56,920 nt of DNA from a virus (taxonomy: Duplodnaviria > Caudoviricetes), in IMG/VR virus record IMGVR_UViG_3300039159_000083, positions 1 to 56,920 of that record, one strand, 5' to 3'. Numbering within the stretch: position 1 is the stretch's first letter; each line of letters starts with the position of its first letter. The position numbers and the translations under genes are program-made. This document shows positions 2,248-27,016 of this stretch, piece after piece. The notes under the pieces were generated by a model, which was given only the letters and a program-made list of their open reading frames with translations, was not told where the DNA came from and searched no databases.

Positions 2248-5200
2248 TTATCTCTTCTTCTTATATAAAGTATTAATAGCTCTACCTATATTTAACTTGG
2301 TATTACTTGAATTAGGTATGTTCTTTAGGTTACCTGATTTAATACTAGCTATTTGTACTTGAGTACCAAGGGTAAGCCCAGAACTAATCATATCTAAGTA
2401 ACAGGCATAGACAGCGTTAACTACTGCATCTGCCATATCTTTACCTGCTAGATTATGAGTTACCTGACCATTAGGTTTAACTATAATTTCACTAAGTTCA
2501 GTTATAAGAGTAGATATATATACTGAATCCCTGGGTAGTTCTAATAAACCTTGGGATAAAAGATCTCTAAATGTAGTGTAATAAGTTAATTGTTGAACTC
2601 TAGCAGTAGACATCTGCTCAGTAGAGAAACCTAATGTATGTAACTTCTGTATAGAAGATTCAGAGTTAAAGGAGTCAAAGGTAATCTTAGAGGCGTGTCT
2701 AGCTTTACCTAATTCTATAATGCAATCCTCTACATTTTGATAGGAGACATATCTCTGATGACCTGTAGAATCTAAATAGGGTTTCCATCTGATTAGAGCA
2801 TCAAGTGATATACCCCATCTATCATCTGCCATCTTAATGGCATGACACATAGCAAGAGCAGTGGCATCTCTTTTAACTGAGAAGTCTACATGTATGAATG
2901 ACCGGATAGAAGTATTCTTTTCTAATCTAGTTATATCTACTTCTACATATCTCTTAGTCTCAGAAGATATTTCTAAGTTCTTATCTCTCTCTAATGTATC
3001 TATACAAGAGAAACCAGTACAAGCTTTATCACATAGCTGGGCACTTATAAAACCAGTGGATAACTTCCTTCTAATACCTTCATACTCTAACTCAGCCTTT
3101 ACCCTATTCTTAATATAATCAGAGTTACAATTGGCCCTTGATACAGCCTCTAGTTTGTTTAAGTCCCAAGTACGAAGACGGAAGAAGACAGTATCAGGGT
3201 CAGCTTGAGTATCATTAATAAGTCTCTCCATAGGGTCACCAGTACACCATGCAGAGGAGATGGCTACCTTATGTCCTAGAGCACCAAATCTATTGACACC
3301 AGCCCCTACGTTAGAGAAGAGATGATCACCAGCACTTGTAATGGTTCCATCATCTTCTATCTTATTCTCAAAGCGGGCAAACTCATCTAATATCATTGCC
3401 TTAAGGGTATAACCAACTAAAGCCGGTGAGTTAGTATGTTTGGCATAGATGGCAACATTCTTAGCAGGACACTTAATAGTCTCTGCTAGTATCTCTATCT
3501 TCCCAGAGTCTTGCATTGCCTTAAAGAAATAAGAATCTGCAGCATAACCCCTTATCTTAGCAAAGAGAGTATCTTTAACTTGCTCTAAGGTCTGTGCTAT
3601 TACAAAGAGTGCTATAGGGTCATTAGGTAGTAATTTGTAGTGACGGGCAGGATTAGGTAGGGTAATGAGGGAATAGAACTCATATAAGGCTATAATGGCG
3701 GCTATCGTCGAATTGTGAGAAATGATATCATTACCAATAATGTTGGTACCCTTAACCTCTAAAGCTATAGTGGAGGCCGTACCTTCTAAAGTAAGTGATG
3801 CTATAGGTTCCCATAAGATGGGGGCATCAATGAAACAGGAAAGGTCTATAATACCTAACTTGTGGGCGGCATCTTTGGCTTTAGCCTTTGATAATCTATC
3901 CTTCCTGATATAACTATTAGGGGTAAGGCCTAAAGAGGTCCAGCTAACCTTAGATTTATATTTAGCCTTCTCAATAAGATTCAGGGCCCCTTTAGGTAGA
4001 AGTTCTATTCTTTGGTCTCTATCTAATCTCTTACTGATTATTTCTATAGCTTGATTTAAAGCTTCGCCTTTACTATATATACCTATATCTTGAGAGAACT
4101 TAAGAATATCCCTTTTAGTTCTAATAGCTAGTTCCCAAGCATCAAAGTTTTTACTATTGCATGTAGCTATCTTATGGAAGGTGTGTGAGGTAATACCAAA
4201 TTTAAGTAGCTCTCTTTGTATGTCATCAATAAAGTCTTTAGAGGCTAGGGTTATGCCTAGTGTCACCCTAGTGGGAGTACTAGAACAATATCCATCACAA
4301 GAGAACAAACGTGATAGGAAGCTGGCCACCTCTTCTTTAGGGGCTTCTTTAATACATGTTGGTATTCTTTTATTCTTAGATAACTTATCCCACTCTCCTA
4401 AACTCTTTATCCAATTCATTAGAGGATTAGGCGTACCCCCAGTCATCCCAGCTTGGTGGGATATACGATATTGTATCTTGGTGCCACCTATGAGCTTTAT
4501 TCTGTAGCTAGGGAACTCTCTATTTAATATGTCCTGTATATCTTCTATTACCATAGACTGCTCATTGGTAAAAGTGATAGATTCACCTCTTACACTACCA
4601 TCTCCCCATATATAACCTAGGAGGGCAGCTTTATCTAAACCAATGGACTTTCCACCAAATAACTCTTGGGATTTAGCTACAGCTACATAATCCCCTACTT
4701 CTAAGTCTTTAACTTCCACCCATCTAGGTACATCCCAATCATCTCTCCAAACTAGGTAAGGATGTTCCGCAGTAACTTTATCAGCTCTCCCACTCTTAGT
4801 TCTAAGTTCATATACTTCTTTAACGCCATTAAACTCAGTAGCTATGTCGTAGCTAATATACTTTTCCCAGGTAGCAGGGTTATAAGTAAATATTCCTATT
4901 CTTTCTCCTCTAGATAATCTCTGATGTAAATCTCCATAGGAAAGGCTACCTACCGTAGTAGTAATAAAAGAGTCTTCTGAACAGCACTTACTGTTATGCG
5001 AGATTATGGAGTTCCCTATAATACTAGTATCTGTAACTTCTAATCCTACTATTCTTTTCATACCTACTTCGATGAGTTCTTCTACCCCATCCCATCTAAT
5101 ATTAGATTGGGCTAAAGTTTTAAGTTCCTCATCCTTTAGATTAGTAGCATAAGTAATAACCTTTGACTTAGAGGGAGCATATTGCTTTCTAAGTCTGGAA

Positions 5201-6588
5201 TGATCTGTGTTAATCCCTCCAGTAACTTGCCTATTACTAAATTTAAGAGTCTCTTGCTTATCGTTTATCCTATCCCAAACTGAGCAGGGTAGGGTGTCTA
5301 CCTTACATTGAGACCTTATATCTGGGTTAGATGTGATTGCTTCTATAGCCTTCAACTTATCTTCTTTGGAGAAGATGCCAATCTGATGAATGAAGTTAGA
5401 AAGGGATTGTTTATCACTAATAGTTAAGGCCCAGGCATCAAATAGCTTACCATTACACTTGGATGCTTTGTAGTTTACTCTACTAGCTATGCCAAACTTT
5501 ACCAGCTCTCTTTGTATATCTTCTATAAACTCTTTGGAGGCTAAGCATATACCAATAATACATTTAGGATTAGGATGTTTGTCTATTAGTTTACCTACAC
5601 ACGCATATCCATCACAGGCAAATAGTCTTGATAAGAAGGTAGCTATCTCTTCTTTAGGGGCTTGTTTAATACAAGGAGGTATCCTTTTATGAATAGCTAG
5701 TTTACCATGCTCTCCTATTTCTCTTAGCCAACATAAGAGAGGATTACCTTGACCAGGTTTAGCAGATAATGTGTAGCCATACTTTGCTGCCCCTTTTCTT
5801 ATACGTATAGTCGGAAAGGATTCATCTAATATAGATTGTATCTCTTCTATTATTCTAGAGTCCATATTAGTAAACCTAATAGAGGAGCGCTGAGATAAGC
5901 CTCCATCTCCTAATAGATAGCCTAATAGTTTAGCCTTAGCTACTCCTATAGAAGTAGTACCAAATAAGGGAAGGTTATCTAGTACTGCTATACGATCCCC
6001 TACTACTAAATCCTTTAGTTCTACCCATTCTGGTAGCCCCTTTCTCCATATAAGATAAGGGTGGTCATAAGTGCACTCTTCTTCTTTACCCGCCGCAGTC
6101 TTTATTCTTATGGCAGGTTCCTCCCCTTTATCCCAAGTCTTTATGTCATAAGTAGTATAGGATTCCCACGTGTCTGGATTAAGAGTAGTAATTCCTATGG
6201 TTTCTCCTAATAACTTTCTATCTCTTAGTTCTCCATATGTAATAGTTCCTACTGTAGTTATTACATAAGAATCTTCAGAAGGGCATCCACCACGCCCTAC
6301 TTCTAGTATTAAATTCTTATAGCTTCTACCTTCTACCCAATTAGTTCTACCCTCATATTTCCATTGAGCTAATACATTCTTCTCTATATCATTTAGGTCT
6401 TCACCATACATGGTTTTGAGAAGTGCTGTCTGCTGAGGGAATAACTGGGCACTACCATTAAATACAATATCCTCAGCAAACTCTATTATAGATATGGAGT
6501 TATTCTGATTAGACCCTATACCAGCAGCAGCAGAAGTAATAAAACCATCAAAGAGGTTATCTAAGTTAGTGGTTTTCTTATTAACCAT
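2248..6588 (-). CDS. terL: Terminase large subunit containing two inteins (about 590 aa after splicing)
   Basis: After intein removal: LFPQQ adenine-binding motif, Walker A LILEVGRGGSKST, Walker B AMILDEFARF, and RNase H-like nuclease motifs FIHVDFSVKRDATALA, ITFDSFNS and GKDMADAV. Confidence 0.93.
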   Translation of the reverse strand: MVNKKTTNLDNLFDGFITSAAAGIGSNQNNSISIIEFAEDIVFNGSAQLFPQQTALLKTMYGEDLNDIEKNVLAQWKYEGRTNWVEGRSYKNLILEVGRGGCPSEDSYVITTVGTITYGELRDRKLLGETIGITTLNPDTWESYTTYDIKTWDKGEEPAIRIKTAAGKEEECTYDHPYLIWRKGLPEWVELKDLVVGDRIAVLDNLPLFGTTSIGVAKAKLLGYLLGDGGLSQRSSIRFTNMDSRIIEEIQSILDESFPTIRIRKGAAKYGYTLSAKPGQGNPLLCWLREIGEHGKLAIHKRIPPCIKQAPKEEIATFLSRLFACDGYACVGKLIDKHPNPKCIIGICLASKEFIEDIQRELVKFGIASRVNYKASKCNGKLFDAWALTISDKQSLSNFIHQIGIFSKEDKLKAIEAITSNPDIRSQCKVDTLPCSVWDRINDKQETLKFSNRQVTGGINTDHSRLRKQYAPSKSKVITYATNLKDEELKTLAQSNIRWDGVEELIEVGMKRIVGLEVTDTSIIGNSIISHNSKCCSEDSFITTTVGSLSYGDLHQRLSRGERIGIFTYNPATWEKYISYDIATEFNGVKEVYELRTKSGRADKVTAEHPYLVWRDDWDVPRWVEVKDLEVGDYVAVAKSQELFGGKSIGLDKAALLGYIWGDGSVRGESITFTNEQSMVIEDIQDILNREFPSYRIKLIGGTKIQYRISHQAGMTGGTPNPLMNWIKSLGEWDKLSKNKRIPTCIKEAPKEEVASFLSRLFSCDGYCSSTPTRVTLGITLASKDFIDDIQRELLKFGITSHTFHKIATCNSKNFDAWELAIRTKRDILKFSQDIGIYSKGEALNQAIEIISKRLDRDQRIELLPKGALNLIEKAKYKSKVSWTSLGLTPNSYIRKDRLSKAKAKDAAHKLGIIDLSCFIDAPILWEPIASLTLEGTASTIALEVKGTNIIGNDIISHNSTIAAIIALYEFYSLITLPNPARHYKLLPNDPIALFVIAQTLEQVKDTLFAKIRGYAADSYFFKAMQDSGKIEILAETIKCPAKNVAIYAKHTNSPALVGYTLKAMILDEFARFENKIEDDGTITSAGDHLFSNVGAGVNRFGALGHKVAISSAWCTGDPMERLINDTQADPDTVFFRLRTWDLNKLEAVSRANCNSDYIKNRVKAELEYEGIRRKLSTGFISAQLCDKACTGFSCIDTLERDKNLEISSETKRYVEVDITRLEKNTSIRSFIHVDFSVKRDATALAMCHAIKMADDRWGISLDALIRWKPYLDSTGHQRYVSYQNVEDCIIELGKARHASKITFDSFNSESSIQKLHTLGFSTEQMSTARVQQLTYYTTFRDLLSQGLLELPRDSVYISTLITELSEIIVKPNGQVTHNLAGKDMADAVVNAVYACYLDMISSGLTLGTQVQIASIKSGNLKNIPNSSNTKLNIGRAINTLYKKKR
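3712..4986 (-). mobile_element. Intein 2 with LAGLIDADG homing endonuclease (425 aa)
   Basis: Starts CCSED, block B VTAEHPYL, LLGYIWGDGS and FLSRLFSCDGY motifs, ends IISHN followed by Ser+1. Confidence 0.93.
4993..6285 (-). mobile_element. Intein 1 with LAGLIDADG homing endonuclease (431 aa)
   Basis: Starts CPSED, block B CTYDHPYL, LLGYLLGDGG and FLSRLFACDGY motifs, ends IISHN followed by Ser+1. Confidence 0.93.
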
Positions 6589-8079: not shown

Positions 8080-8955
8080 TTAACCTATTACCACTACTCT
8101 ATATTGATTAGTAGTAGGAGCCACTGAGAATGTCAGGGTAATAGTATTTACAGTCGTATGATCTATATCAGTAATAATATAAGAGTAAGGAGATGCAGTA
8201 GTGTAAATATGGGCAACTACATCTCTAGTATTAAGGTTATGAGTGATGGTGATAGAGGTACTACTACCATCCCCTATAGAAGTATTATATTTACCAACTC
8301 CAGTAGGTCTTGAATCTACATATAATTTAGTTACTGCATCTGTATCCAGAGTAGGAGTAGCTAAGTTAGTTATCTTATTAGAGTTAAGGTTTAAGTTAAC
8401 TGTAGGGGCAGCTAGTTGATCTAATCTATTAGTACGTACCTGAGTATCAAAGTTACTAATAGTAGATGCTAACTGAGAGCCACTATGATTAGTTCTAGAT
8501 AGGTAATAAGTACCTACCTGACTTTCTAGTTGACTAGCATTACTGGCTAAGCCTGTTAAGGGGCCTATAAAACTAGTGGCAGTGATAGCACCACTACTAT
8601 CTCTTAGGGTAAGTGTAGAAGCTGTAGATAAGGCAGTAGCCCCATCTAATTTATCTTTATCACTTATAGATAGACTACCTGCAGTAATAGATGAAGCAGC
8701 GGGTATACCTATAATAGGTGCCTGACTAGTACCTGTATTGACTAAGGGGGCACTAATAGTTATAGAACTTATAGAGTTATCAGCTCCTACTAATGACTGC
8801 CATATTGTCCCATCAAAGTTACGTAAGGCTTTAGTAACAGTGTCATAATATAATTGCCCTTCTAAAGGTGTAGAAGGGGCAGTACTTAACCTATGTATTA
8901 CTGCCTGTCTTAATTCATTCTGATTAAGGTCTAGGTGGAATTGAACTTGTGGCAT
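8080..8955 (-). CDS. Short fibre protein
   Basis: APSTPLEGQLYYDT, RTNHSGSQLASTIS, DAVTKLYVD and C-terminal ITITHNLNTRDV module. AGGAGG RBS at 8960-8965. Confidence 0.75.
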   Translation of the reverse strand: MPQVQFHLDLNQNELRQAVIHRLSTAPSTPLEGQLYYDTVTKALRNFDGTIWQSLVGADNSISSITISAPLVNTGTSQAPIIGIPAASSITAGSLSISDKDKLDGATALSTASTLTLRDSSGAITATSFIGPLTGLASNASQLESQVGTYYLSRTNHSGSQLASTISNFDTQVRTNRLDQLAAPTVNLNLNSNKITNLATPTLDTDAVTKLYVDSRPTGVGKYNTSIGDGSSTSITITHNLNTRDVVAHIYTTASPYSYIITDIDHTTVNTITLTFSVAPTTNQYRVVVIG

Positions 8956-8974: not shown

Positions 8975-9022
8975 AGTTAGAGTTAGAGTTAGAGTTAAAA
9001 TTGAAGCTAGAGTTAGAGTTAA
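8975..9022. repeat. Hexamer tandem repeat (AGTTAG), eight degenerate units
   Basis: AGTTAG AGTTAG AGTTAG AGTTAA AATTGA AGCTAG AGTTAG AGTTAA, in register. Confidence 0.85.
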
Positions 9023-11034
9023 CTTGTATAAGTAATTACTACCTTAAATTGATTTAAGGTAGGGGCAACTGTAAATACAAATTGTAAGGCGTTATTACTT
9101 ATTCTTCTTACAGTAGGAATAACATCTTCAAAGCTATTTCCATTCTCATATACCTGCCATATAACATTCTTAGAACCTAAGTTATGAGTGACAGTAATAG
9201 AATTATTAGTTCCATCTCCCACATCAGTAGTAAAAGCTGTAGTGTTAGAAGAACCACCGCCGCCCCCATCTAGAGATACCCAACTTGAGGTACTAGCTCT
9301 GTAATATTGGAAGTTATTAGAAGCCCATCTAAGGGTTCCTTTATCATTTCCTTGTCCTAAGACTAGATAACCCTGACTACCAGGTAAGGCAGCTATAGTA
9401 AGATTTCTATCTCCTACTACAGGAATAAGAGGTGAAGGTAATACAGGGGCTTGATCTCCATAACCTATTAATATGTTTCCTTCACTATTAATAGTGAGAG
9501 AATCTAATAAGAGATTGGAACCATCTGCTTTGACCTTAAATCTAAGGCCTCCACCTATATTAACTGCAACACCTTCAGCATAACCTTCTATAATACTCAC
9601 ACTCTTTAGAGGCTGAGTAGAAGAAGATAGGTTGAAACTGACTCTACCTGCCACATCCCCAGCAGTAATACTGGATTTAGGGTTATTAAGTAGAAGTAAT
9701 CCAGGTCTATCTACCTTACCTGATACAGTAAGAAGAGTATCATTAGGGTTAAATACAACACCTAAGGTGGGGTCACTTAATCCTATTCCTACATTACGTG
9801 TAGTTATAAGACTATTACCTATAGTATTCTGTATAGATAAGGGGCCGGTAAGCGTTCCTCCAGTAAGAGGTAGATAAAAACCAACTACTCCAATAGCAGT
9901 TAATAAATCATTACCTCTCCGACCTATAAAGGTTCCTGTGTTATCAATTATAGGTATTGTTCCTTCATCTCCTGTGAGAGAAGGTATAACACTTATCTCA
10001 TTTAGGTTAGAGGAGGGAACTAGGTAATCTGTGCCAGGTATAGCAGCAGTAAAGGCAGAAGTACCACTACCTTTAATTAGTCCTGTAAGGGTAGCTACTC
10101 CAGTACCTCCTCTATTAACAGGTAGGGTACCAGTTACATTAGAGGCTAAGTTAAGTAATCCCCAGCTAGCTTCAGTAGTGGGGCCTTGACTACTAAGTAC
10201 TTGTCCTGTAGTACCCCCAGCCACTTGTAAATAACCTAGGTTATTTATAAGGGTAATAGGGCTAAAGTCTAGACTAAAGACATCTCCAATCTTAGATATA
10301 GGTGCTGCTGCTTGATAAGAAGCAACACTAGAGAATTGGGTAAAGACTAAGTCTGTGCTATTAAGAGTGATGGGGGCATTAGTAATTAGTACCCAACCAG
10401 TATCTGCTTGAGTGATACCTTCTTGAATAAAGATGAAGGAACCAGGGGATACTTCAATTGAAGTATCATAATCGCCAGCTCTAATCCAAGTTCCAGTATC
10501 AACTATATAAATACCATTTTCAACAGGAAGCAGTTGGTCTTTAACTAAAATCCTATCTCCTGCAACTAAGAGGATTCCATCTATAGTCTGAACACCTGTT
10601 AAAGCTATATCACTAATAGTAGCTACCCTAGCAGAGTCTTTAATATCAAGCCCAGTAGCTATTGCATCAACATAGGCCTTATTTGTAGCATCATTGGGTA
10701 GGGTAGGTGAGGCTAGGTTTATTAACTTCTGTGAGTTAAAGGAGACTGATAAGTTAGGGGCAGTTAATTGATTTAATCTTTGCCCTTTAACATAAGCAGT
10801 TGTAGCTAGTCTCAAACTACTATCAGTTAGAGTAGGTGTAGGAGCAGTAGGAGTACCAGTAAATACTGGACTATTTCTAGGGGCAAATACTCCTAATCCT
10901 CCTACTGCAACTACTGATCCAGCCTTACCTATAAACAAGGTGTCTGATAGATCAGACCAGGCTAGTTCTCCATTAAATAATACGGTTGGTTCCGCAGAAC
11001 TAATACTTCTCTTTATAAGAATAGTATTGGTCAT
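9019..11034 (-). CDS. Tail/head fibre protein
   Basis: N-terminal ILIKRS...P..L..GELA motif, SPVFTGTPTAPTP repeat, DATNKAYVD, IDG..L..GDRILVKDQ...ENGIY domain, LPVNRGGTG, YLPLTGGTLTGPL and C-terminal ITVTHNLG. Confidence 0.85.
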   Translation of the reverse strand: MTNTILIKRSISSAEPTVLFNGELAWSDLSDTLFIGKAGSVVAVGGLGVFAPRNSPVFTGTPTAPTPTLTDSSLRLATTAYVKGQRLNQLTAPNLSVSFNSQKLINLASPTLPNDATNKAYVDAIATGLDIKDSARVATISDIALTGVQTIDGILLVAGDRILVKDQLLPVENGIYIVDTGTWIRAGDYDTSIEVSPGSFIFIQEGITQADTGWVLITNAPITLNSTDLVFTQFSSVASYQAAAPISKIGDVFSLDFSPITLINNLGYLQVAGGTTGQVLSSQGPTTEASWGLLNLASNVTGTLPVNRGGTGVATLTGLIKGSGTSAFTAAIPGTDYLVPSSNLNEISVIPSLTGDEGTIPIIDNTGTFIGRRGNDLLTAIGVVGFYLPLTGGTLTGPLSIQNTIGNSLITTRNVGIGLSDPTLGVVFNPNDTLLTVSGKVDRPGLLLLNNPKSSITAGDVAGRVSFNLSSSTQPLKSVSIIEGYAEGVAVNIGGGLRFKVKADGSNLLLDSLTINSEGNILIGYGDQAPVLPSPLIPVVGDRNLTIAALPGSQGYLVLGQGNDKGTLRWASNNFQYYRASTSSWVSLDGGGGGSSNTTAFTTDVGDGTNNSITVTHNLGSKNVIWQVYENGNSFEDVIPTVRRISNNALQFVFTVAPTLNQFKVVITYTS

Positions 11035-19496: not shown

Positions 19497-22400
19497 TTAT
19501 GCACCAGCAGAGATTGCACTAACACTTAGAGGGCCAGTAGGTCCACCGAATGTAAGTGTAAAGCTGTTAGCTGATTGAGAAACATTAGAAGGAACTTCAA
19601 CTTCACCAGCGTTATCTACACAGAATACCAACACACGTTGAGTAGCTGTTAGACCCAAGTTATGGGTGATAGTAACCGCGTAGTTAGGGCCAGCACCAAC
19701 TATGGTTGGGGTAATAGGGGCACTGGTAGTAAAGCTCCTAGGAATACCTAAGTTAACCTGAGCCGCAGCTAATGTGGTAGCACCTGTACCACCTTTAGCT
19801 AGGGTTAGAACACCACCTAGGTTAGGAAGAAGGATGTTAGCTTCAACTACATCTAAGGTAACTGTAGAGGCGCCGCCTACTACAACTACTTTATTGGTGG
19901 CCGCTTCTAAACCTTTAAGATTTAGAGTGAAACCAGTTCCAGCTACGCCTGTTCTATCTCTGAAGATAGATACACCACCAGCAGAAGCTGCGGTAGTAAC
20001 ACCATTCAAGTTAAAGAGAGCAGCACCAGCAGTAATAGCATTGGTACCACCTTTAGCTATAGATAGCACACCACCTAAGGCATCTAGGTCTAGTTGAGCT
20101 TCATTAACTGAGAAGGTAACATCATTACCAGAGGAAGCAACAGCAACTTTAGGGCCACCAGTTATACCATCTAGAAGAGATGCAAGTCCTTTGAATTCAA
20201 GAAGGTTAGTAGCACCCGATGTATTCTTACTAAGGAAGATGGATTGTCCAGCACCCAAGTTAGAAGCATTGGCTACACCACCAAGATTCTTTAGACCTTG
20301 ATCAGCAGTAATAGCATTAGTACCACCTTTAGCAATGGTGAGAACACCACTCAAGTTATTGATGGGGATTTGAGTCTCATCAATATCAATAGCTAAATCA
20401 AAAGGTGTAGCGCTAGTAGTAACTTTAGGAGAACCAGCTAGAACTCCTTTCATGTACTGTCTACTAGAATCAGCCCCATCTCTAGCTCCTACTATGGTAG
20501 CTCCAGTGGAAGAAGGTTCTTTAAGAACTGTACCTATAGCACCAAGATTACGTAGTGCTTGAATAGCAGTAGCAGCATTAGTACCACCTTTAGCAATAGG
20601 AGTAATACCAGTAATCTTAGAAGTGGTTATATCAAGAGCGCCACCTAAGTTTTGTAGCAATAGGTTAGCTTCTACTACATCAAAAGTGATAGTAGTAGCA
20701 GTTTCTTGAACCGCAGCTCTGTTACCAGTAGCAGCTAGTAAAGTTCTTAAGTTTAGGTCGGTATTAGAATCCTTACTGATAAAGACTCTAGCAGCTCCAC
20801 CAACGTTAAGAGCAGTACGAGCGGCATCAATATTAACTCTTGCATCTATTGCAGTAGTAGCATTAGTACCACCCTGATCAATTCTCATTGGAGCAGTGAA
20901 GGGAGCACTTAGGCTAGTAATGTCAGCGTTAGCCCCAGACTTAGCAGTCTGTAGGTTAGTTCTAGCAGTAGAAGGGTCAGAAGCACCAGTACCACCTTGA
21001 GTAACACTGAGGGGTGTGGTTAGGCCAGTTAACTGAGTAATATCAGAGTTAACACCAGACTTAGCGGCTTGTAGGTTAATACGAGCATCAGCTATAGTAG
21101 AGGCTCCTGTACCACCTTGTGGGATGGAAAGAGGAGTAGTAAGACCTACTAGTTGGCTGATATCGCTATTGACTCCAGACTTAGCAGCTTGCAAGTTATT
21201 ACGAGCTTGAGCAGCTGTAGTAGCTCCAGTACCACCAAAGGTAAGGTCTACAGGAGTAGACTGCCATCTACCAGCGGTGACGGTACCAAGTGTATTAATA
21301 GATGTCTGACCAGGATAGATAGGGTCTATACCAATCTGATCAGGATAAGCAATTATCTCACCAGGTTTACCAATGGCATGGACAACATTACCAGTCTTGA
21401 TAAGACCATCGCCAGCACTAAACTGACCAGGTTGACCAAAGGTCAAGTTAGAGACACCTAAGACCACAGGGCCATTAGGACTAGTCATTAACCATTCAGT
21501 ATCAGAGAATGCTACGCCATCTTGAGCATATAGCATTACACCAGCAGATAGTTTATCACTAGTATCTGCATCAGGGGCTCTCATCCAAGCGCCAGCTTGA
21601 GCAACATAGATACCATTAGCTCTAGCATCTGATTGACCAGCAACCAAAACTCTATCGCCAATGTTAACAGTACGTCCATCAACTACCTGAGTACCAGCTA
21701 GAGATATACCAGATACTGCAACTACTCTAACAGGAGCTTTTACACTCACTTTAGATAGAAGCTCATCTACATACTGCTTGTTAGCTGCATCTTTAGGGGC
21801 AACGGGATCCTTTAGGTTACTAAACCCAAAGTTAACCATGCTGAAGTTATTGATGGGTGGTGTCAAGTCAGATAGAGAGATATTATCAATAGATGAATCT
21901 ACATATCTCTTGTTAGCTGCGTCTTGATCTAGAATAGGATTCTTAATATTAAGAAGTCTATTATTAGCTATATCTACATCACCAACAGGACTAGCCATCT
22001 GATCTAATCTATTGATTCTAACTGACTCATGAAAGTCAACAATAGTAGAGGCAGGTTGTACGCCTGTGTGATTCATCCTGTTAAGAGGATTTACTTCTAG
22101 CTTGGATAGCTTGATATTAGCAGAGGCTGAAATATCTCCATCTACAATAGCACCAGGAGCTATTGAAACTTCATTCGAGAAGCCACTAGAAACTAAGTCT
22201 CCAAATAGAGCAGGGATAATAACTGGAGAACCATTAGGAGCGCCACCAGGAACACCAGGAGCACCCACACCAGGAAACTCAACCCAACCAGTACCATTCC
22301 AGTAGTAAGCTCTCTTACTTAATAGGTTATAGTAAACATCACCTTCATTAGGGTTAGGAGGAGCCGCATTTCTAGCATTGAACTTCGACATTGAAAGAAT

Positions 22401-22592
22401 CTGTAGAAGAGCAGGACTCATCTCAATGGAGATAAAGTTCCTATAAGGGAAACTACCACTCATCATATAAATGAGCTCTTCCCTATCTTCTGACTTATCC
22501 ATATCAAGGTAATAGACACCACCTTGCTTTAAAGAAACTCTCTTACTGCCATATACATGGACAAAACTACGCAATACTGAGATCCGGATCAT
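19497..22592 (-). CDS. Long repeat-rich fibre protein (possibly head/neck fibre)
   Basis: PPNPNEGDVYYN, DAANKRYVD-type motif twice, GDRVLVAGQ...NGIY domain, eight GGTGA/GGTNA repeats and C-terminal VTITHNLG. AAGGAG RBS. Confidence 0.85.
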   Translation of the reverse strand: MIRISVLRSFVHVYGSKRVSLKQGGVYYLDMDKSEDREELIYMMSGSFPYRNFISIEMSPALLQILSMSKFNARNAAPPNPNEGDVYYNLLSKRAYYWNGTGWVEFPGVGAPGVPGGAPNGSPVIIPALFGDLVSSGFSNEVSIAPGAIVDGDISASANIKLSKLEVNPLNRMNHTGVQPASTIVDFHESVRINRLDQMASPVGDVDIANNRLLNIKNPILDQDAANKRYVDSSIDNISLSDLTPPINNFSMVNFGFSNLKDPVAPKDAANKQYVDELLSKVSVKAPVRVVAVSGISLAGTQVVDGRTVNIGDRVLVAGQSDARANGIYVAQAGAWMRAPDADTSDKLSAGVMLYAQDGVAFSDTEWLMTSPNGPVVLGVSNLTFGQPGQFSAGDGLIKTGNVVHAIGKPGEIIAYPDQIGIDPIYPGQTSINTLGTVTAGRWQSTPVDLTFGGTGATTAAQARNNLQAAKSGVNSDISQLVGLTTPLSIPQGGTGASTIADARINLQAAKSGVNSDITQLTGLTTPLSVTQGGTGASDPSTARTNLQTAKSGANADITSLSAPFTAPMRIDQGGTNATTAIDARVNIDAARTALNVGGAARVFISKDSNTDLNLRTLLAATGNRAAVQETATTITFDVVEANLLLQNLGGALDITTSKITGITPIAKGGTNAATAIQALRNLGAIGTVLKEPSSTGATIVGARDGADSSRQYMKGVLAGSPKVTTSATPFDLAIDIDETQIPINNLSGVLTIAKGGTNAITADQGLKNLGGVANASNLGAGQSIFLSKNTSGATNLLEFKGLASLLDGITGGPKVAVASSGNDVTFSVNEAQLDLDALGGVLSIAKGGTNAITAGAALFNLNGVTTAASAGGVSIFRDRTGVAGTGFTLNLKGLEAATNKVVVVGGASTVTLDVVEANILLPNLGGVLTLAKGGTGATTLAAAQVNLGIPRSFTTSAPITPTIVGAGPNYAVTITHNLGLTATQRVLVFCVDNAGEVEVPSNVSQSANSFTLTFGGPTGPLSVSAISAGA

Positions 22593-23949: not shown

Positions 23950-24327
23950 ATGGTAAAAATAGATAACTTAAGAAATACTAAGATAGGAATCAGAGTTGAT
24001 AGAAGTTCTGCCCTTGGTAATCCTTTTGATCTAGTTAATACTAGAGATGTGGTTATGAGACTTAGAGTATGCAATGCTTATCAAGAATACTTTGACTTAA
24101 TAGAAAAGGGGGCCGAACCTATTAATATAGTAAAGCTTCTTTGTACTAAGTACTTTGTCAGTATTCATTCCACATGGAAAGCACCAAATAGAAGAATGTT
24201 CTTGGAAGCTCTTAGTGATATAGGAGCTAATGACACTCTTCTGTGCTGGTGCACTCCAGAGTTGTGTCATGCCTTAACTATAAAGGAATGGAAGGATTCT
24301 AATAAGTCCTTAGAAACAGATTCCTAA
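23950..24327 (+). CDS. DUF4326-family protein
   Basis: VDRSSALGNPF ... LLCWCTPELCHALTI signature. AAGGAG RBS at 23939-23944. Confidence 0.8.
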   Translation: MVKIDNLRNTKIGIRVDRSSALGNPFDLVNTRDVVMRLRVCNAYQEYFDLIEKGAEPINIVKLLCTKYFVSIHSTWKAPNRRMFLEALSDIGANDTLLCWCTPELCHALTIKEWKDSNKSLETDS

Positions 24328-27016
24328 AGAAGGAAGACTTATTAGTAGCGGTAGACATGTCTACCCTAATTACTATAGAGGTTCTATAGGAAAGTATCTC
24401 CTCTCCTGTATTATCATTTATGGTTGTTTCATAATTACTTAATCCTTCTATATACCAAGATCCCGTATATAGAAGAGAAGCGGCATCTAATAATAGAAGG
24501 GGCGACCTTTTTAATAACTTAGTCCATGTCTGAGTATTATTAGAACTGATATAGATATCTAAGTAATCTAACTTAGATATTGAATAATCCAGAGAGACTT
24601 CTACATTTCTATAAGAAGTATGGAAGTCTCTACTTTTTGATACCCAAGTACATAAAGGATTAGAACTAGAGCCGATAAATATAGAGGAACCTATATCTAT
24701 TACAGGTAAAGAATATAAAGGGTTATTAACAGATAGGGTTATCTGTTTACTTTTAGTCTTATCAAAGTTGCCAGCTAGAGTCTCTCCTAAATTATCCATA
24801 AGGGTAATGTCAGTCTCTACTGATATCTGGGCAGGGATATGATAATCAATATGAGAGAAATCTTTATCTGAAGATAACTCAATCTCCAAAGAGGATTCAT
24901 TACTATCTGAAGTATTGGTATCTATATTAATACAGAGTAACTTAGTATTATCTATTTCCCAACTAGAGGTAATTCCCTTAGTATGAAAAGAATTAAGACT
25001 AGGATTAAGCTGGGCTACATCATAAACACCTAATCTAACGTTATTAACATAACTATAAACTAGTAGACTATACTCATTATTTGTAAGGGTTATAGGATAA
25101 TCTAATGAAATACTAGAGACTCCAATGTTTAGATAATCCCTTAATAATAAATCTCCACTATATAAGACTTTATCCTCACAAGGAACACCTAATCTATTCT
25201 CTACTATGTTTAGACATAGAAGGGGTTTAGTGGGGTCTTGAATACTTATAGGTATAGAAGTAATTCTAACCCCTAACCTAGAAATGATACTACTTCCATT
25301 TATATAAAAAGATTGGGCCACCAACTTATTACTAGATATATAAGGTCTTATAGCTAGATTAGTATTACTAACCCCAGAAAAATTAGATACTAAATTAAGT
25401 CTTTCTGAATGTAGAATATCATTCGATCTTTTCAAGTAGATATGATAATTATCTGATATCTCTATATCAGGAGTTATAAAACTAACTTCTAATGTTCCAT
25501 TAACATCTGATCTAAGTTGTGAGGGATATATAAAAGTAGAGATTAATATCTGGTTTATATATAGGGAATAGGATGTAGAAGCTGACAATCCTTTATATCT
25601 TATAAATAAATTGGTAGGTCTAAGTTTATTAGTATCATCTTTATATATTGCTATTGGATAAATAGATGCTGTTATAGATGTAGCTAATAGGTTAATTGAA
25701 GAAGTTGCCCGCTCTTCTTTAATAGAAGAAACCCTAGATATAGATGGGTATAAATAAGAAGGGGAACCATTACTATTTATAACTCTAATGAAATTTACTC
25801 CTTTAATACTTGGCTTAAGTATTGAAGAGCTTAATGCACTCTGTACTCCTTTACTAGATATTAGAGCATTGAAAAGCGGATGATAGACATTGGAGTATTC
25901 TGGAGTAAGTAAAGGGTCTGAGTGTATATTTATTAATGAGTATTGGTTATCTTTATTCTGAGCTATAACTTGAGAGTATATGCTGGCTAGATTACTCCTA
26001 TTATTATTACTGGCCTCATCTAATAGGGATAAATCTTTATTAGATAAGGCCCTAGAAGTAGAAGGATTTATTTCTATTCCTTCTACTCCTTCTATTCCTA
26101 TAATTACTTGTGCCAATTCTATATAGGGCTTATATACTAATTCTCTAGATATGGTAGAAGTAACTTCTGATAATTCTAAGATAGGATCTTCATTAGTATT
26201 AGTAATAGTCACACCTTCACTATTACTAATATAGGTTAACTCCTGAGCTATATACGCCCCCACAAGACAGATAGATAGTATAGGTGTAGTATTTATCCTT
26301 ATAGAATAAGTACCTGCTATAGAGGGGATAGAGATTAGATGTGGATAATTTAGAGATACTCTTATTCCTTCTATATAGGCATGACCTGGAGTAATAGTTA
26401 AGGAAGTGGAATTAAGAGTATAAACTTGTAAACCTTTATCTATATAATTATCAGTTTCTTCTTTCCAACTGAGACTTAGTAAATCCTGTAGTTTAGATGT
26501 AATAGATGCAGATACTTCTAGCTTATCTTTTACTTTAGATATGTAAGCTATTGGATAACTATTAGCATTATTTATGGTTAACTTAGATTTGATATAACTA
26601 CGTTTAGCACCAATAGCTCCAGCAATAGGGCCAGCTATACTTGGGTCTAATAATATAGTTGAGTTATCTAATTCTAATAGATTAGATTCAATACCAATAT
26701 GGGAATCACCAAAGGGTAATGTGAGATAAGTGGCATTAATCTCTGATATATAGAATTGATCTTCTATCTCTAAGTAAAACTTACCTCCATTAATAAAGAT
26801 GGTTCTATTAGCTTGAGAAGTTATGGTAATATCTAATCCTTCTATTATATGAAAGGAATCATAAAAGTTAGATATTAATGCACGTGTATTATTATTAGCT
26901 ATTGATTGTAAGTCTAATAGGTCTTCTAACTGAGCCTTCTTATCAGCTCTAGGTAATAATCTAATCCAATCCTTATCTTTATTCCATCTATTACCTAACT
27001 CTTTATTAATAGACAT
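24299..27016 (-). CDS. DUF4815-like baseplate/receptor-binding protein, diverged paralogue
   Basis: Collinear with the upstream gene: WIRLLPRADKKAQLEDLLDLQS, LLDPSIAG, ITPGHAYIEG, LRSDVNG, VAQSFYI. Confidence 0.7.
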   Translation of the reverse strand: MSINKELGNRWNKDKDWIRLLPRADKKAQLEDLLDLQSIANNNTRALISNFYDSFHIIEGLDITITSQANRTIFINGGKFYLEIEDQFYISEINATYLTLPFGDSHIGIESNLLELDNSTILLDPSIAGPIAGAIGAKRSYIKSKLTINNANSYPIAYISKVKDKLEVSASITSKLQDLLSLSWKEETDNYIDKGLQVYTLNSTSLTITPGHAYIEGIRVSLNYPHLISIPSIAGTYSIRINTTPILSICLVGAYIAQELTYISNSEGVTITNTNEDPILELSEVTSTISRELVYKPYIELAQVIIGIEGVEGIEINPSTSRALSNKDLSLLDEASNNNRSNLASIYSQVIAQNKDNQYSLINIHSDPLLTPEYSNVYHPLFNALISSKGVQSALSSSILKPSIKGVNFIRVINSNGSPSYLYPSISRVSSIKEERATSSINLLATSITASIYPIAIYKDDTNKLRPTNLFIRYKGLSASTSYSLYINQILISTFIYPSQLRSDVNGTLEVSFITPDIEISDNYHIYLKRSNDILHSERLNLVSNFSGVSNTNLAIRPYISSNKLVAQSFYINGSSIISRLGVRITSIPISIQDPTKPLLCLNIVENRLGVPCEDKVLYSGDLLLRDYLNIGVSSISLDYPITLTNNEYSLLVYSYVNNVRLGVYDVAQLNPSLNSFHTKGITSSWEIDNTKLLCINIDTNTSDSNESSLEIELSSDKDFSHIDYHIPAQISVETDITLMDNLGETLAGNFDKTKSKQITLSVNNPLYSLPVIDIGSSIFIGSSSNPLCTWVSKSRDFHTSYRNVEVSLDYSISKLDYLDIYISSNNTQTWTKLLKRSPLLLLDAASLLYTGSWYIEGLSNYETTINDNTGEEILSYRTSIVIRVDMSTATNKSSFFRNLFLRTY

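What the first reader, a model, noticed from the sequence alone, without database searches (positions are those of the whole stretch)
3712..6285. Two full-length inteins separated by only two extein residues inside the terminase Walker A motif
Seen: LEVGRGG-[C...HN, 431 aa]-SK-[C...HN, 425 aa]-STIAA. The middle extein is 6 bp (4987-4992) and encodes the catalytic P-loop Lys. The Ser at the usual Gly position (GRGGSKS) provides the +1 nucleophile for intein 1. Established: inteins favour P-loops and phage terminases, and LAGLIDADG sites span roughly 14-40 bp. Inference: each intein destroys the other's homing site, so they must move as a unit or be retargeted. Each also forms the other's near extein context, so splicing may be ordered, and DNA packaging depends on both events.
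Basis: partly seen in the sequence, partly recalled or inferred. Interest (0 to 1): 0.8.

Follow-up and report, generated by a model that had tools for sequence, protein, structure and literature searches.

The report
Two inteins splitting a terminase P-loop
A cyanophage-like DNA-packaging gene carries two complete self-splicing, mobile protein inserts only two amino acids apart inside its ATP-binding loop, so the enzyme can work only after both cut themselves out; this is a rare variant of a known kind of element, and relatives show similar stacked inserts.

Summary
One minus-strand ORF (2248-6588, 1446 aa) reads N-extein ...LEVGRGG | intein 1 (431 aa, C...HN) | SK | intein 2 (425 aa, C...HN) | STIAA... 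C-extein.

Both inserts carry the class 1 intein residues and two LAGLIDADG motifs. Both fold confidently (pLDDT 91) like solved endonuclease-bearing inteins.

Intein-less homologues, up to 70% identical, have a contiguous GRG[GS][SGT]KS. Removing both inserts therefore restores the Walker A loop.

The two inteins are 44% identical members of one family. They are not recent duplicates.

Relatives carry alleles occupied at only one of the two sites. No other allele occupied at both was found in 108 family proteins, 64 loci, two collection-wide pattern scans and a profile search of 1.8 billion representatives.

The Ser before Lys is the family's commonest residue even in empty alleles, so it is not an adaptation to intein 1.

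The arrangement has company. Fourteen relatives carry two inteins back to back with no extein residue between them. Five T4-like terminases carry pairs split by TGK or SGK.

Splicing order, nuclease activity and movement as a unit remain inferences. Read-level support could not be obtained.

Verdict: real; a new variant of a known kind.

The parts
2248..6588 (-). Large terminase (TerL) precursor gene, 1446 codons plus stop
   Evidence: The C-extein matches PHROG phrog_2, terminase large subunit (E 2.3e-10). It is 46% identical to the annotated terminase of Microcystis phage Ma-LMM01.
6286..6588 (-). N-extein, 101 aa, ending LEVGRGG (first half of Walker A)
   Evidence: It covers profile positions 1-103 of the intein-less family profile.
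4993..6285 (-). Intein 1 at site a (GRGG|SK), 431 aa: Cys1 ... His-Asn, with Ser at +1
   Evidence: AF2 pLDDT 91.2. Best solved match is 7qss, the TliVMA endonuclease-bearing intein, E 7e-21.
6052..6072 (-). Intein 1 block B (TYDHPYL; T-x-x-H)
   Evidence: His-Pro-Tyr is invariant in 13 full-length family members.
5899..5928 (-). Intein 1 LAGLIDADG motif 1 (LLGYLLGDGG)
   Evidence: The acidic residue is kept.
5605..5637 (-). Intein 1 LAGLIDADG motif 2 (FLSRLFACDGY)
4987..4992 (-). Middle extein, AGT AAG = Ser-Lys (the Walker A Lys)
3712..4986 (-). Intein 2 at site b (SK|ST), 425 aa: Cys1 ... His-Asn, with Ser at +1
   Evidence: AF2 pLDDT 91.1. Best solved match is 7qss, E 1e-22.
4753..4773 (-). 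Intein 2 block B (TAEHPYL)
4594..4623 (-). Intein 2 LAGLIDADG motif 1 (LLGYIWGDGS)
4288..4320 (-). Intein 2 LAGLIDADG motif 2 (FLSRLFSCDGY)
2248..3711 (-). C-extein, 487 aa plus stop, starting STIAAIIALYEF. It holds the rest of the ATPase domain (the conserved ILDE motif is at 3370-3396) and the C-terminal domain.
   Evidence: The window keeps all 55 columns that are invariant among 25 aligned family sequences.

Best explanation
The gene encodes a large-terminase precursor of a Ma-LMM01-like tailed phage. Two separate class 1 inteins have invaded its Walker A loop, and each carries its own LAGLIDADG homing endonuclease. The two insertion points are two codons apart: site a (GRGG|SK) and site b (SK|ST).

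Shown:
- the architecture;
- the presence of every canonical splicing and endonuclease residue in both inteins;
- the confident intein-plus-endonuclease folds;
- restoration of the family's conserved GRGGSKST loop only if both inteins are removed and SK is kept;
- the existence of empty, a-only and b-only alleles in relatives;
- membership of both inteins in one family, at about 44-48% identity to each other and to inteins at either site in other phages.

Inferred:
1. Two independent protein-splicing reactions are needed before the ATPase can bind ATP, so packaging depends on both.
2. Intein 1 is translated about 430 residues ahead of the end of intein 2. It therefore probably splices first, which leaves intein 2 in the same N-extein context as in b-only alleles.
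3. The pair arose by successive invasion of neighbouring sites by two lineages of one intein family, not by a recent duplication.
4. The insertion points are only 6 bp apart, so the two endonuclease targets in an empty allele must overlap. A cut by either enzyme would be repaired from the doubly occupied donor with both inteins copied together. The 2.57-kb block therefore behaves as one mobile unit towards empty alleles and is inert towards singly occupied ones.
For: Architecture and coordinates.

Domain matches: Pfam LAGLIDADG_3 matches twice in each intein, and Intein_splicing matches each.

Conserved residues: an alignment of 13 full-length family inteins has invariant Cys1, HPY (block B), GDG and CDG (the LAGLIDADG acidic residues) and SHN. 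Both window inteins keep all of these.

Folds: AF2 gives pLDDT 91.2 and 91.1 with pTM 0.91 for both. Foldseek's best matches for both are the TliVMA intein, PI-PfuI, PI-TkoII and PI-SceI.

Host protein: the intein-less homologue P0001 (590 aa) is 70% identical and reads GRGSSKST. The family profile is fully covered by the exteins. The window keeps all 55 invariant columns of 25 aligned sequences.

P-loop occupancy in 108 family proteins: 42 empty, 48 occupied at site b, 13 occupied at site a (including this one), and 5 too truncated to classify.

Relatedness of the two inteins: they are 44% identical over full length and 56% in DNA. Intein 1 is 45-48% identical to P0056 (site a) and P0098 (site b). 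Intein 2 is 44-46% identical to P0098 and P0100.

Composition: G+C is 0.374 for intein 1 and 0.381 for intein 2, against 0.363 and 0.372 for the exteins. Neither intein looks compositionally foreign.
Against: There is no experimental or read-level evidence. The only public run that held any of the stretch gave two 151-base pieces inside intein 2 and nothing across the junctions.

The allele is a singleton: one cluster member on one contig.

Intein 1 alone scores 29.3 bits on Pfam Intein_splicing, below the curated cut-off of 35.8. Intein 2 (39.7) and the whole protein (61.6) pass.

The record is a fragment, estimated 34% complete, so a second, uninterrupted terminase gene elsewhere in the genome cannot be excluded.

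The trees do not resolve the origin. In one search the centre of the tree is unresolved. A clade of intein 1 plus intein 2 is not in the best tree, but it is not rejected either (AU p = 0.115).

Splicing order, overlapping targets and co-homing are inferences only.
Confidence: 0.82

Rival explanations
1. The two inteins arose in place. An ancestral site-a (or site-b) intein was copied into the neighbouring site of the same gene, shifted by 6 bp, and the copies have since diverged. On this view the pair is a set of old in-gene paralogues rather than two separate invasions.
For: Both inteins belong to one family and are full-length homologues (44% identity, E 9e-111). In one search intein 2 branches right at the boundary between site-a and site-b inteins. 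Holding intein 1 and intein 2 together as a clade is not rejected (AU p = 0.115).
Against: The best tree does not join them; forcing the clade costs 16.5 log-likelihood units. Intein 1 is at least as similar to inteins in other phages (48% to P0098 at site b, 45% to P0056 at site a) as to intein 2 (44%). Intein 2 is closest to P0098 and P0100. Both site lineages exist on their own in many other terminases. No second doubly occupied allele that would mark an old in-gene pair was found.
Confidence: 0.15
2. The gene is decaying. One or both inteins no longer splice, so the ORF is a dead terminase on a defective phage or on a fragment whose working terminase lies elsewhere.
For: The allele is a singleton on a metagenomic fragment estimated 34% complete. 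There are no expression or splicing data. Intein 1 alone is below the Pfam Intein_splicing cut-off.
Against: The ORF runs 4341 bases without a stop or frameshift. All splicing residues and both LAGLIDADG acidic residues are kept in both inteins. The exteins keep all 55 invariant family columns. Many relatives have clearly degenerate endonuclease domains (inteins of 270-380 aa), whereas these two are full length and fold with pLDDT 91.
Confidence: 0.07
3. The arrangement is an assembly chimera of an a-only allele and a b-only allele from two co-occurring strains.
For: The sequence is a metagenome assembly, and no reads across the junction could be obtained. Both kinds of single-site allele exist in nature.
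Against: The two parental forms would share only the 6 bp AGTAAG at the required join. The inteins are 56% identical in DNA with a longest exact run of 17 nt, shorter than the word lengths assemblers normally use (the word-length figure is recalled, not from a call). The join is exactly in frame and exactly at HN|SK|C. Comparable close pairs occur independently in other terminases, with 0-residue and 3-residue spacers.
Confidence: 0.03

Closest known systems
Mycobacteriophage TerL1-a and TerL1-b P-loop inteins (Kelley et al. 2016, PMC5050341; passages read)
   Same: These are inteins inside the Walker A loop of a phage large terminase. One site lies between the invariant Lys and the following Thr or Ser, like site b here. 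A second site lies one residue away. The inteins were shown to splice and to have active endonucleases.
   Different: In the passages read, the two sites are described as alternative sites in different phages, not as occupied together. The terminase family differs (Terminase_1). The supplements were closed, so a doubly occupied allele listed only there cannot be excluded.
Haloarchaeal MCM-a / MCM-d 'double inteins' (Turgeman-Grott et al. 2023, PMC10643990; abstract and passages read)
   Same: Two LAGLIDADG-bearing inteins sit in the ATPase domain of one essential gene, which raises the question of how neighbouring inteins affect each other's homing.
   Different: [quoted passage not shown] The pair invades singly occupied alleles well and empty alleles poorly. 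Here the sites are 6 bp apart, so the targets must overlap. A singly occupied allele lacks an intact target for the other enzyme, and a single cut should carry both inteins into an empty allele. The predicted behaviour is therefore the reverse of the MCM case; this is inference.
DnaB insertion sites a and c (Novikova et al. 2016, PMC4760082; passages read)
   Same: Two intein insertion points lie only two residues apart in a conserved motif of a P-loop ATPase.
   Different: The passage reports simultaneous occupancy for DnaB sites b and a, which are far apart, not for a and c. The motif is H4, not the P-loop.
Microcystis phage Mic1 terminase with two inteins (PMC7156551; passages read) and a crAss-like terminase with two inteins (bioRxiv 10.1101/2020.07.20.212944; passages read)
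   Same: A phage large terminase interrupted by two inteins.
   Different: In Mic1 the two inteins lie in different domains (ATPase and nuclease). Neither text describes two inteins inside one Walker A loop.
Unnamed database terminases with stacked P-loop inteins, found here. Same family: K|intein X|intein Y|ST with no residue between the inteins (14 proteins, e.g. P0066, P0070, P0090). T4-like Terminase_6N family: GRR|intein|TGK or SGK|intein|T (P0237, P0144, P0154, P0177, P0122).
   Same: Two complete inteins sit inside one terminase Walker A loop, 0 or 3 residues apart. The downstream intein is related to intein 2.
   Different: The spacing and site combination differ. No other allele combines sites a and b with SK between them. 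In the zero-spacer pairs the upstream intein uses Cys1 of the downstream intein as its +1 residue. I found no paper describing any of these.
Solved endonuclease-bearing inteins: TliVMA (7qss), PI-PfuI (1dq3), PI-TkoII (2cw7), PI-SceI (1vde)
   Same: The predicted fold of both window inteins matches these structures: a HINT splicing domain plus a two-motif LAGLIDADG endonuclease (TM 0.60-0.66 to the first three).
   Different: Sequence identity is only 10-18%. The hosts are archaeal or yeast, and the host proteins are different.

Membership tests
Class 1 intein (HINT splicing domain) | N-terminal Cys, Ser or Thr nucleophile, and C-terminal His-Asn followed by Cys, Ser or Thr at +1 | tested here: met
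   Intein 1 runs from Cys102 to His531-Asn532, with Ser533 at +1. Intein 2 runs from Cys535 to His958-Asn959, with Ser960 at +1.
Class 1 intein (HINT splicing domain) | Block B T-x-x-H and the conserved C-terminal blocks F and G | tested here: met
   Block B is TYDH in intein 1 and TAEH in intein 2. The LEV..T.IIGN.IISHN tail is conserved across 13 full-length family members. Block names are recalled from the intein literature.
Class 1 intein (HINT splicing domain) | Profile match to the intein splicing domain | tested here: inconclusive
   Pfam Intein_splicing has a cut-off of 35.8 bits. The whole protein scores 61.6 and intein 2 scores 39.7, which pass. Intein 1 alone scores 29.3, which does not.
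Class 1 intein (HINT splicing domain) | In-frame insertion in a conserved host motif, such that removal restores the contiguous motif seen in intein-less homologues | tested here: met
   All 42 P-loop-empty family proteins read GR[GR]x[SGT]K[ST] contiguously. The exteins cover the whole family profile.
Class 1 intein (HINT splicing domain) | HINT fold | tested here: met
   The AF2 models have pLDDT 91. Foldseek matches solved inteins, including the mini-inteins Ssp DnaB and RecA, on the splicing part.
Class 1 intein (HINT splicing domain) | Autocatalytic protein splicing | not testable with these tools
   This needs expression of the precursor or of a reporter.
LAGLIDADG homing endonuclease (single-chain, two-motif) | Two LAGLIDADG motifs, each with its acidic residue | tested here: met
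   Intein 1 has LLGYLLGDGG and FLSRLFACDGY. Intein 2 has LLGYIWGDGS and FLSRLFSCDGY. Pfam LAGLIDADG_3 matches two stretches in each intein.
LAGLIDADG homing endonuclease (single-chain, two-motif) | Endonuclease fold | tested here: met
   Foldseek matches I-DmoI, I-OnuI and I-Tsp061I on the middle domain, in addition to whole endonuclease-bearing inteins.
LAGLIDADG homing endonuclease (single-chain, two-motif) | Site-specific cleavage of the empty allele | not testable with these tools
   This needs a cleavage assay on empty, a-only and b-only targets.
Phage large terminase (PHROG phrog_2; PF27249 as precomputed for homologues) | Profile match of the exteins and homology to annotated terminases | tested here: met
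   The C-extein matches phrog_2 at E 2.3e-10. It is 46% identical to the annotated terminase of Microcystis phage Ma-LMM01. Homologues carry PF27249. The Pfam copy used here gave no hit for the C-extein alone.
Phage large terminase (PHROG phrog_2; PF27249 as precomputed for homologues) | Walker A Lys and the conserved acidic ATPase motif are present | tested here: met
   The Lys lies in the middle extein. The D and E of the ILDE motif are invariant columns that the window keeps. The name 'Walker B' for that motif is my reading, not a tool result.
'Double inteins' in the sense of MCM-a/MCM-d (independent neighbouring homing sites) | Each endonuclease recognises a distinct, separately intact part of the gene, so one site stays cleavable when the other is occupied | tested here: not met
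The insertion points are 6 bp apart. The upstream 12 nt that site b would see in an a-occupied allele match the empty allele at 1 of 12 positions (my own count from the sequences printed).

The most novel reading that the evidence does not exclude
Terminase Walker A loops host an undescribed class of stacked inteins, with spacers of 0, 2 and 3 residues seen here. In these stacks, related endonucleases share one overlapping DNA target. The stack is then a single composite mobile element with a redundant nuclease. It spreads into empty alleles in one conversion event and is immune to both single-intein lineages. The protein must be matured by an obligatorily ordered, N-to-C splicing cascade that could act as a two-step delay on packaging.
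Probability: 0.25. Interest if true: 0.75.

Novelty: new variant of a known kind. Interest (0 to 1): 0.62.

Why it matters
Inteins in terminase P-loops, genes with several inteins, and alternative insertion sites one or two residues apart are all in print. Simultaneous occupancy of two such sites by two endonuclease-bearing inteins is not in any paper my five relevant searches turned up.

The pair is a natural test case for three open questions in intein biology:
- How do neighbouring selfish elements compete or cooperate when their homing targets overlap? This is the reverse geometry of the haloarchaeal MCM case.
- How does an intein family shift its insertion point by a few bases?
- How much native extein context does an intein need? 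Here each intein's near context is the other intein.

The 0-residue and 3-residue pairs found in relatives turn a single oddity into a graded natural series that could be assayed.

On the practical side, two related but distinct inteins that each tolerate a foreign neighbour two residues away could be useful for multi-fragment protein ligation.

Tried and rejected
Reads. Only one public run held any of 3500-6500 (share 0.09). Laying it gave two 151-base contig pieces at 4003-4153 and 4223-4373, both inside intein 2 and neither across a junction. The chimera question therefore stays untested by reads.

Folding the whole double-intein precursor. MAFFT placed the homologues' C-exteins on intein 2 (A2). 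With longer extein anchors it instead split every homologous intein, putting its first ~390 residues on intein 1 and its last 38 on intein 2. Such an alignment would bias the model, so I folded the two inteins separately. Steric feasibility of both domains folded at once was not modelled.

The search for related loci with the single C-extein found no relative in viral contigs. The alignment query was needed.

Genome contigs gave only one relative, with an empty P-loop.

Pfam on the C-extein alone gave no family, and the N-extein gave only chance-level hits.

Search for another a+b junction. The pattern G-N-x-I-[IV]-S-H-N-S-K-C had no match in viral contigs or metagenome contigs. The window's own record may be left out of these scans. 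The pattern would also miss site-a inteins with other C-terminal residues, such as VNSFISHN.

Trees. The 38-row tree has long branches from degenerate inteins, and the tool warned about long-branch joins. The 21-row tree is unresolved at its centre. I rejected any claim about which site is ancestral.

Tandem duplication of 'intein plus SK' is rejected as the origin. It would leave a second SK after intein 2, and the C-extein starts directly with ST.

Excision of the whole 858-aa block as one unit is rejected as the productive route. The product would lack the Lys, a nearly invariant column of the family alignment.

Supplementary files of papers were closed. A doubly occupied allele listed only in a supplement of PMC5050341, PMC4760082 or the 2025 actinobacteriophage preprint could have been missed.

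Full report
WHAT IS THERE

The window is a 56,920-base virus record, linear and estimated 34% complete. The finding lies in one minus-strand ORF, 2248..6588, of 1446 codons without a stop.

A script located the boundaries:
- N-extein: aa 1-101 (window 6286-6588), ending LEVGRGG.
- Intein 1: aa 102-532 (4993-6285, 431 aa), from Cys to His-Asn.
- Middle extein: aa 533-534 (4987-4992, AGT AAG), Ser-Lys.
- Intein 2: aa 535-959 (3712-4986, 425 aa), from Cys to His-Asn.
- C-extein: aa 960-1446 (2251-3711), starting STIAAIIALYEF.

THE HOST PROTEIN

The C-extein matches PHROG phrog_2, terminase large subunit (E 2.3e-10). It is 46% identical to the annotated terminases of Microcystis phages of the Ma-LMM01 group. 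Neighbouring ORFs match tail sheath, tail fibre or head decoration families and DUF4815. The window is therefore a structural and packaging block of a large contractile-tailed phage. Eight other large ORFs showed no intein domain.

A profile built from 36 intein-less homologues is matched by aa 1-105 (profile positions 1-103) and aa 959-1445 (positions 101-584). The two inserts interrupt the protein at one point and nothing is missing. In an alignment of 25 family sequences the window keeps all 55 invariant columns.

THE TWO INSERTS ARE COMPLETE INTEINS WITH ENDONUCLEASES

Each insert matches Pfam LAGLIDADG_3 in two stretches and Intein_splicing in one. Intein 1 alone is below the curated cut-off for the latter (29.3 against 35.8 bits), while intein 2 and the whole protein pass.

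An alignment of 13 full-length members of this intein family has these invariant features:
- Cys1;
- His-Pro-Tyr of block B (T-x-x-H in both window inteins);
- the GDG and CDG of the two LAGLIDADG motifs;
- the C-terminal IIG..IISHN.

Both window inteins keep all of them (coordinates).

With 19-row alignments, AlphaFold2 gives mean pLDDT 91.2 and 91.1, with pTM 0.91 for both. Foldseek's best solved matches for both are endonuclease-bearing inteins: TliVMA 7qss (E 7e-21 and 1e-22, TM 0.64 and 0.66), PI-PfuI, PI-TkoII and PI-SceI. Free-standing LAGLIDADG enzymes match the middle domain, and mini-inteins match the splicing domain. By sequence alone the nearest solved chains are the same VMA inteins, weakly.

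THE P-LOOP IN RELATIVES

I collected 108 proteins of this terminase family: 49 of near length, 47 longer including the window's own, and 12 more from a search with the junction region. A 13th new hit was a DnaB helicase and was dropped.

Classified by script:
- 42 have an empty P-loop reading GR[GR]x[SGT]K[ST];
- 48 carry an insert after the Lys (site b);
- 13 carry an insert before [S]K (site a), including the window;
- 5 are too truncated to classify.

The closest homologue, P0001 (70% identical, 590 aa), reads GRGSSKST.

The residue before Lys in the 42 empty alleles is S in 22, G in 11 and T in 9. All 13 site-a alleles have Ser at +1. The Ser is thus a family trait that makes site a available. 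It is not a change special to this allele.

RELATION OF THE TWO INTEINS

The two inteins are homologous over their full length (44% identity, E 9e-111). Identity is 56% in codon-aligned DNA, with a longest exact run of 17 nt. By region, identity is highest in the endonuclease core (53%) and lowest in the segment after it (32%).

Intein 1 is 45% identical to P0056 (site a) and 46-48% identical to P0097, P0098 and P0100 (site b). Intein 2 is 44-46% identical to the same site-b inteins.

In a tree of 38 family inteins, the ten site-a inteins lie on one side of a branch (support 96/88), and intein 2 is the first site-b branch next to them. The tool warned of long branches.

In a tree of 21 rows enriched for full-length members, the centre is unresolved: 9 of 18 inner branches are open. 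Intein 1 joins the degenerate site-a inteins P0011 and P0052 (84/96). Forcing intein 1 and intein 2 together costs 16.5 log-likelihood units but is not rejected (AU p = 0.115).

I read this as two old lineages of one family, each also found alone in other phages. I cannot say which site is ancestral. G+C of the inteins (0.374 and 0.381) equals that of the exteins (0.363 and 0.372). No deposited phage genome has a close relative of either intein; the best tblastn identity is 30% or less.

IS THE DOUBLE ALLELE FOUND ELSEWHERE?

No. The evidence is as follows:
- Among the 108 proteins, only the window's own has both sites occupied.
- None of 64 loci has both: 48 viral, 1 genome and 15 metagenome. 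Most are empty, a few carry one P-loop intein, and L023 carries a zero-spacer pair at site b.
- A degenerate DNA pattern for the junction peptide found nothing in viral contigs or metagenome contigs. The window's own record may be left out of those scans.
- A word-indexed search with aa 433-634 found 15 proteins. Apart from the window's own, 13 covered at most 58% of the junction segment. The 14th, P0067 (70%), is a zero-spacer pair.
- A full HMMER pass over 1.84 billion representatives found 287 proteins at E <= 0.001, of which 150 were listed. Only the window's own protein matched across all 202 residues.

CLOSE PAIRS OF OTHER KINDS DO EXIST

Within the same terminase family, 14 of the 108 proteins have a site-b insert of 515-880 aa. 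Each resolves into two complete inteins with no residue between them: K | X...[TS]HN | C(Y)...SHN | ST.
- Y belongs to the same family as intein 2.
- X is a LAGLIDADG intein that starts with Cys in P0070, P0077 and P0092.
- In the other eleven, X starts with A, F, M, L or S. It shows HLW, PVKC and PTHN in the nine short inteins aligned, and PVKC and THN in the C-terminal ends printed for the longer ones.
- That fits the class 3 signature: a non-nucleophilic first residue plus a Trp-Cys-Thr triplet (PMC2807308, abstract and passages).
- The same X and Y also occur alone at site b, for example in P0002 and P0060.
- Locus L023 and protein P0128 are further cases.

The representative search also brought up T4-like (Terminase_6N) terminases with two inteins in the Walker A loop separated by three residues:
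- GRR | intein | TGK | intein | T in P0237, P0144, P0154 and P0177;
- SGK in P0122.

Pairs separated by six or seven residues were also seen in P0200, P0212 and P0125. I inspected 23 of the 150 listed hits, namely those whose best matched stretch reached across or near the junction. The rest were not examined for pairs.

HOW IT MOST LIKELY WORKS

Shown: the functional loop GRGGSKST can form only if intein 1 and intein 2 are each excised and Ser-Lys is retained.

Established knowledge (recalled): the Walker A Lys is needed for ATP binding and hydrolysis in P-loop ATPases, including terminases.

Inferred:
- Two separate class 1 splicing reactions are required, each using its own Cys1, terminal Asn and a Ser at +1.
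- Excision of the whole block by intein 1's N-terminus and intein 2's C-terminus would delete the Lys. It can only be an unproductive side reaction.
- Intein 1 with its +1 Ser emerges from the ribosome about 430 residues before intein 2 is complete. N-to-C order is therefore the likely kinetic order, and it would leave intein 2 in the context seen in b-only alleles.

On mobility, the insertion points are 6 bp apart. LAGLIDADG targets are longer than that (general knowledge). In an empty allele the two targets must therefore overlap, and a break made by either enzyme would be repaired from a doubly occupied donor with both inteins copied together.

In a singly occupied allele, most of one half-site of the other enzyme is replaced. 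For site b in an a-occupied allele, the upstream 12 nt match the empty sequence at 1 of 12 positions (my count). This is the reverse of the haloarchaeal MCM-a/MCM-d pair. [quoted passage not shown]

How the double allele first formed is open. A join at the 6-7 bp microhomology during repair or recombination between an a-only and a b-only allele is possible but untested.

COMPARISON WITH WHAT IS KNOWN

In print:
- P-loop inteins in terminases, including two sites one residue apart in mycobacteriophage TerL1 (PMC5050341).
- Insertion sites two residues apart in DnaB (PMC4760082).
- Terminases with two inteins in different places (PMC7156551 and a crAss-like phage preprint).
- Interference between neighbouring inteins (PMC10643990).

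Five full-text searches found no paper that describes two inteins within one Walker A loop, or inteins with zero to three residues between them. The terms 'tandem inteins', 'back-to-back inteins', 'consecutive inteins', 'stacked inteins', 'twin inteins' and 'nested intein' had no occurrence in any paper listed. Supplements were closed and subscription journals are not covered, so this is not proof of absence.

WHAT REMAINS UNTESTED

- Read support for the junction (searches were uninformative).
- Splicing itself and its order.
- Endonuclease activity and targets.
- Whether the full phage genome has another terminase gene.

VERDICT

It is a new variant of a known kind: a doubly invaded terminase Walker A loop with a two-residue middle extein. 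It is unique in its site combination as far as I could search. It is also one member of a wider, apparently undescribed set of stacked P-loop inteins.

Noticed in passing
Proteins P0066, P0067, P0068, P0070, P0072, P0077, P0078, P0082, P0083, P0084, P0087, P0088, P0090, P0092 and P0128; locus L023:2523-7544: Relatives of this terminase carry two complete inteins at site b with no extein residue between them (K|X..HN|C(Y)..HN|ST). The upstream intein would have to use Cys1 of the downstream intein as its +1 nucleophile. Both X and Y also occur alone at the same site in other alleles.
   Followed up: partly
Proteins P0237, P0144, P0154, P0177, P0122 (3-residue spacers) and P0200, P0212, P0125 (6-7 residues): P0237, P0154 and P0125 match the T4-like terminase family Terminase_6N. 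P0237, P0144, P0154, P0177 and P0122 hold two inteins in the Walker A loop separated by TGK or SGK (GRR|intein|TGK|intein|T). P0200, P0212 and P0125 have spacers of 6-7 residues. P0144, P0122 and P0200 gave only intein-type Pfam families, P0177 also a weak DEAD-helicase match below its cut-off, and P0212 was not scanned.
   Followed up: partly
Proteins P0002, P0010, P0019, P0051 (site b); P0003, P0007, P0008 (site a): Short inteins (145-270 aa) in the same P-loop start with Ala or Pro. The seven aligned (all but P0051) show HLW, PV[KQM]C and PT[HC]N, the signature of class 3 inteins. P0051, seen only at its ends, shows PVKC and PTHN. The site-a ones start Pro-Leu and end Cys-Asn.
   Followed up: partly
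Proteins P0040, P0053-P0055, P0074-P0077, P0081, P0082, P0086, P0088-P0091, P0094, P0095: The same terminase family has further insertion points at about profile positions 234-237, 447-454 and 513-520. Some alleles carry three inserts (for example P0077 at 1829 aa and P0090 at 1672 aa).
   Followed up: no
window 24299-27016 and 27006-31202 (minus strand): Two adjacent large ORFs (905 and 1398 aa) both begin with a DUF4815 domain (E 1e-13 and 7.5e-81). They look like paralogous structural genes.
   Followed up: no
window 8080-8955, 9019-11034 and 19497-22592 (minus strand): Three ORFs share the same head-decoration / tail-fibre-like PHROG families (phrog_2647 and others). This suggests a repeated module in fibre-like proteins.
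   Followed up: no
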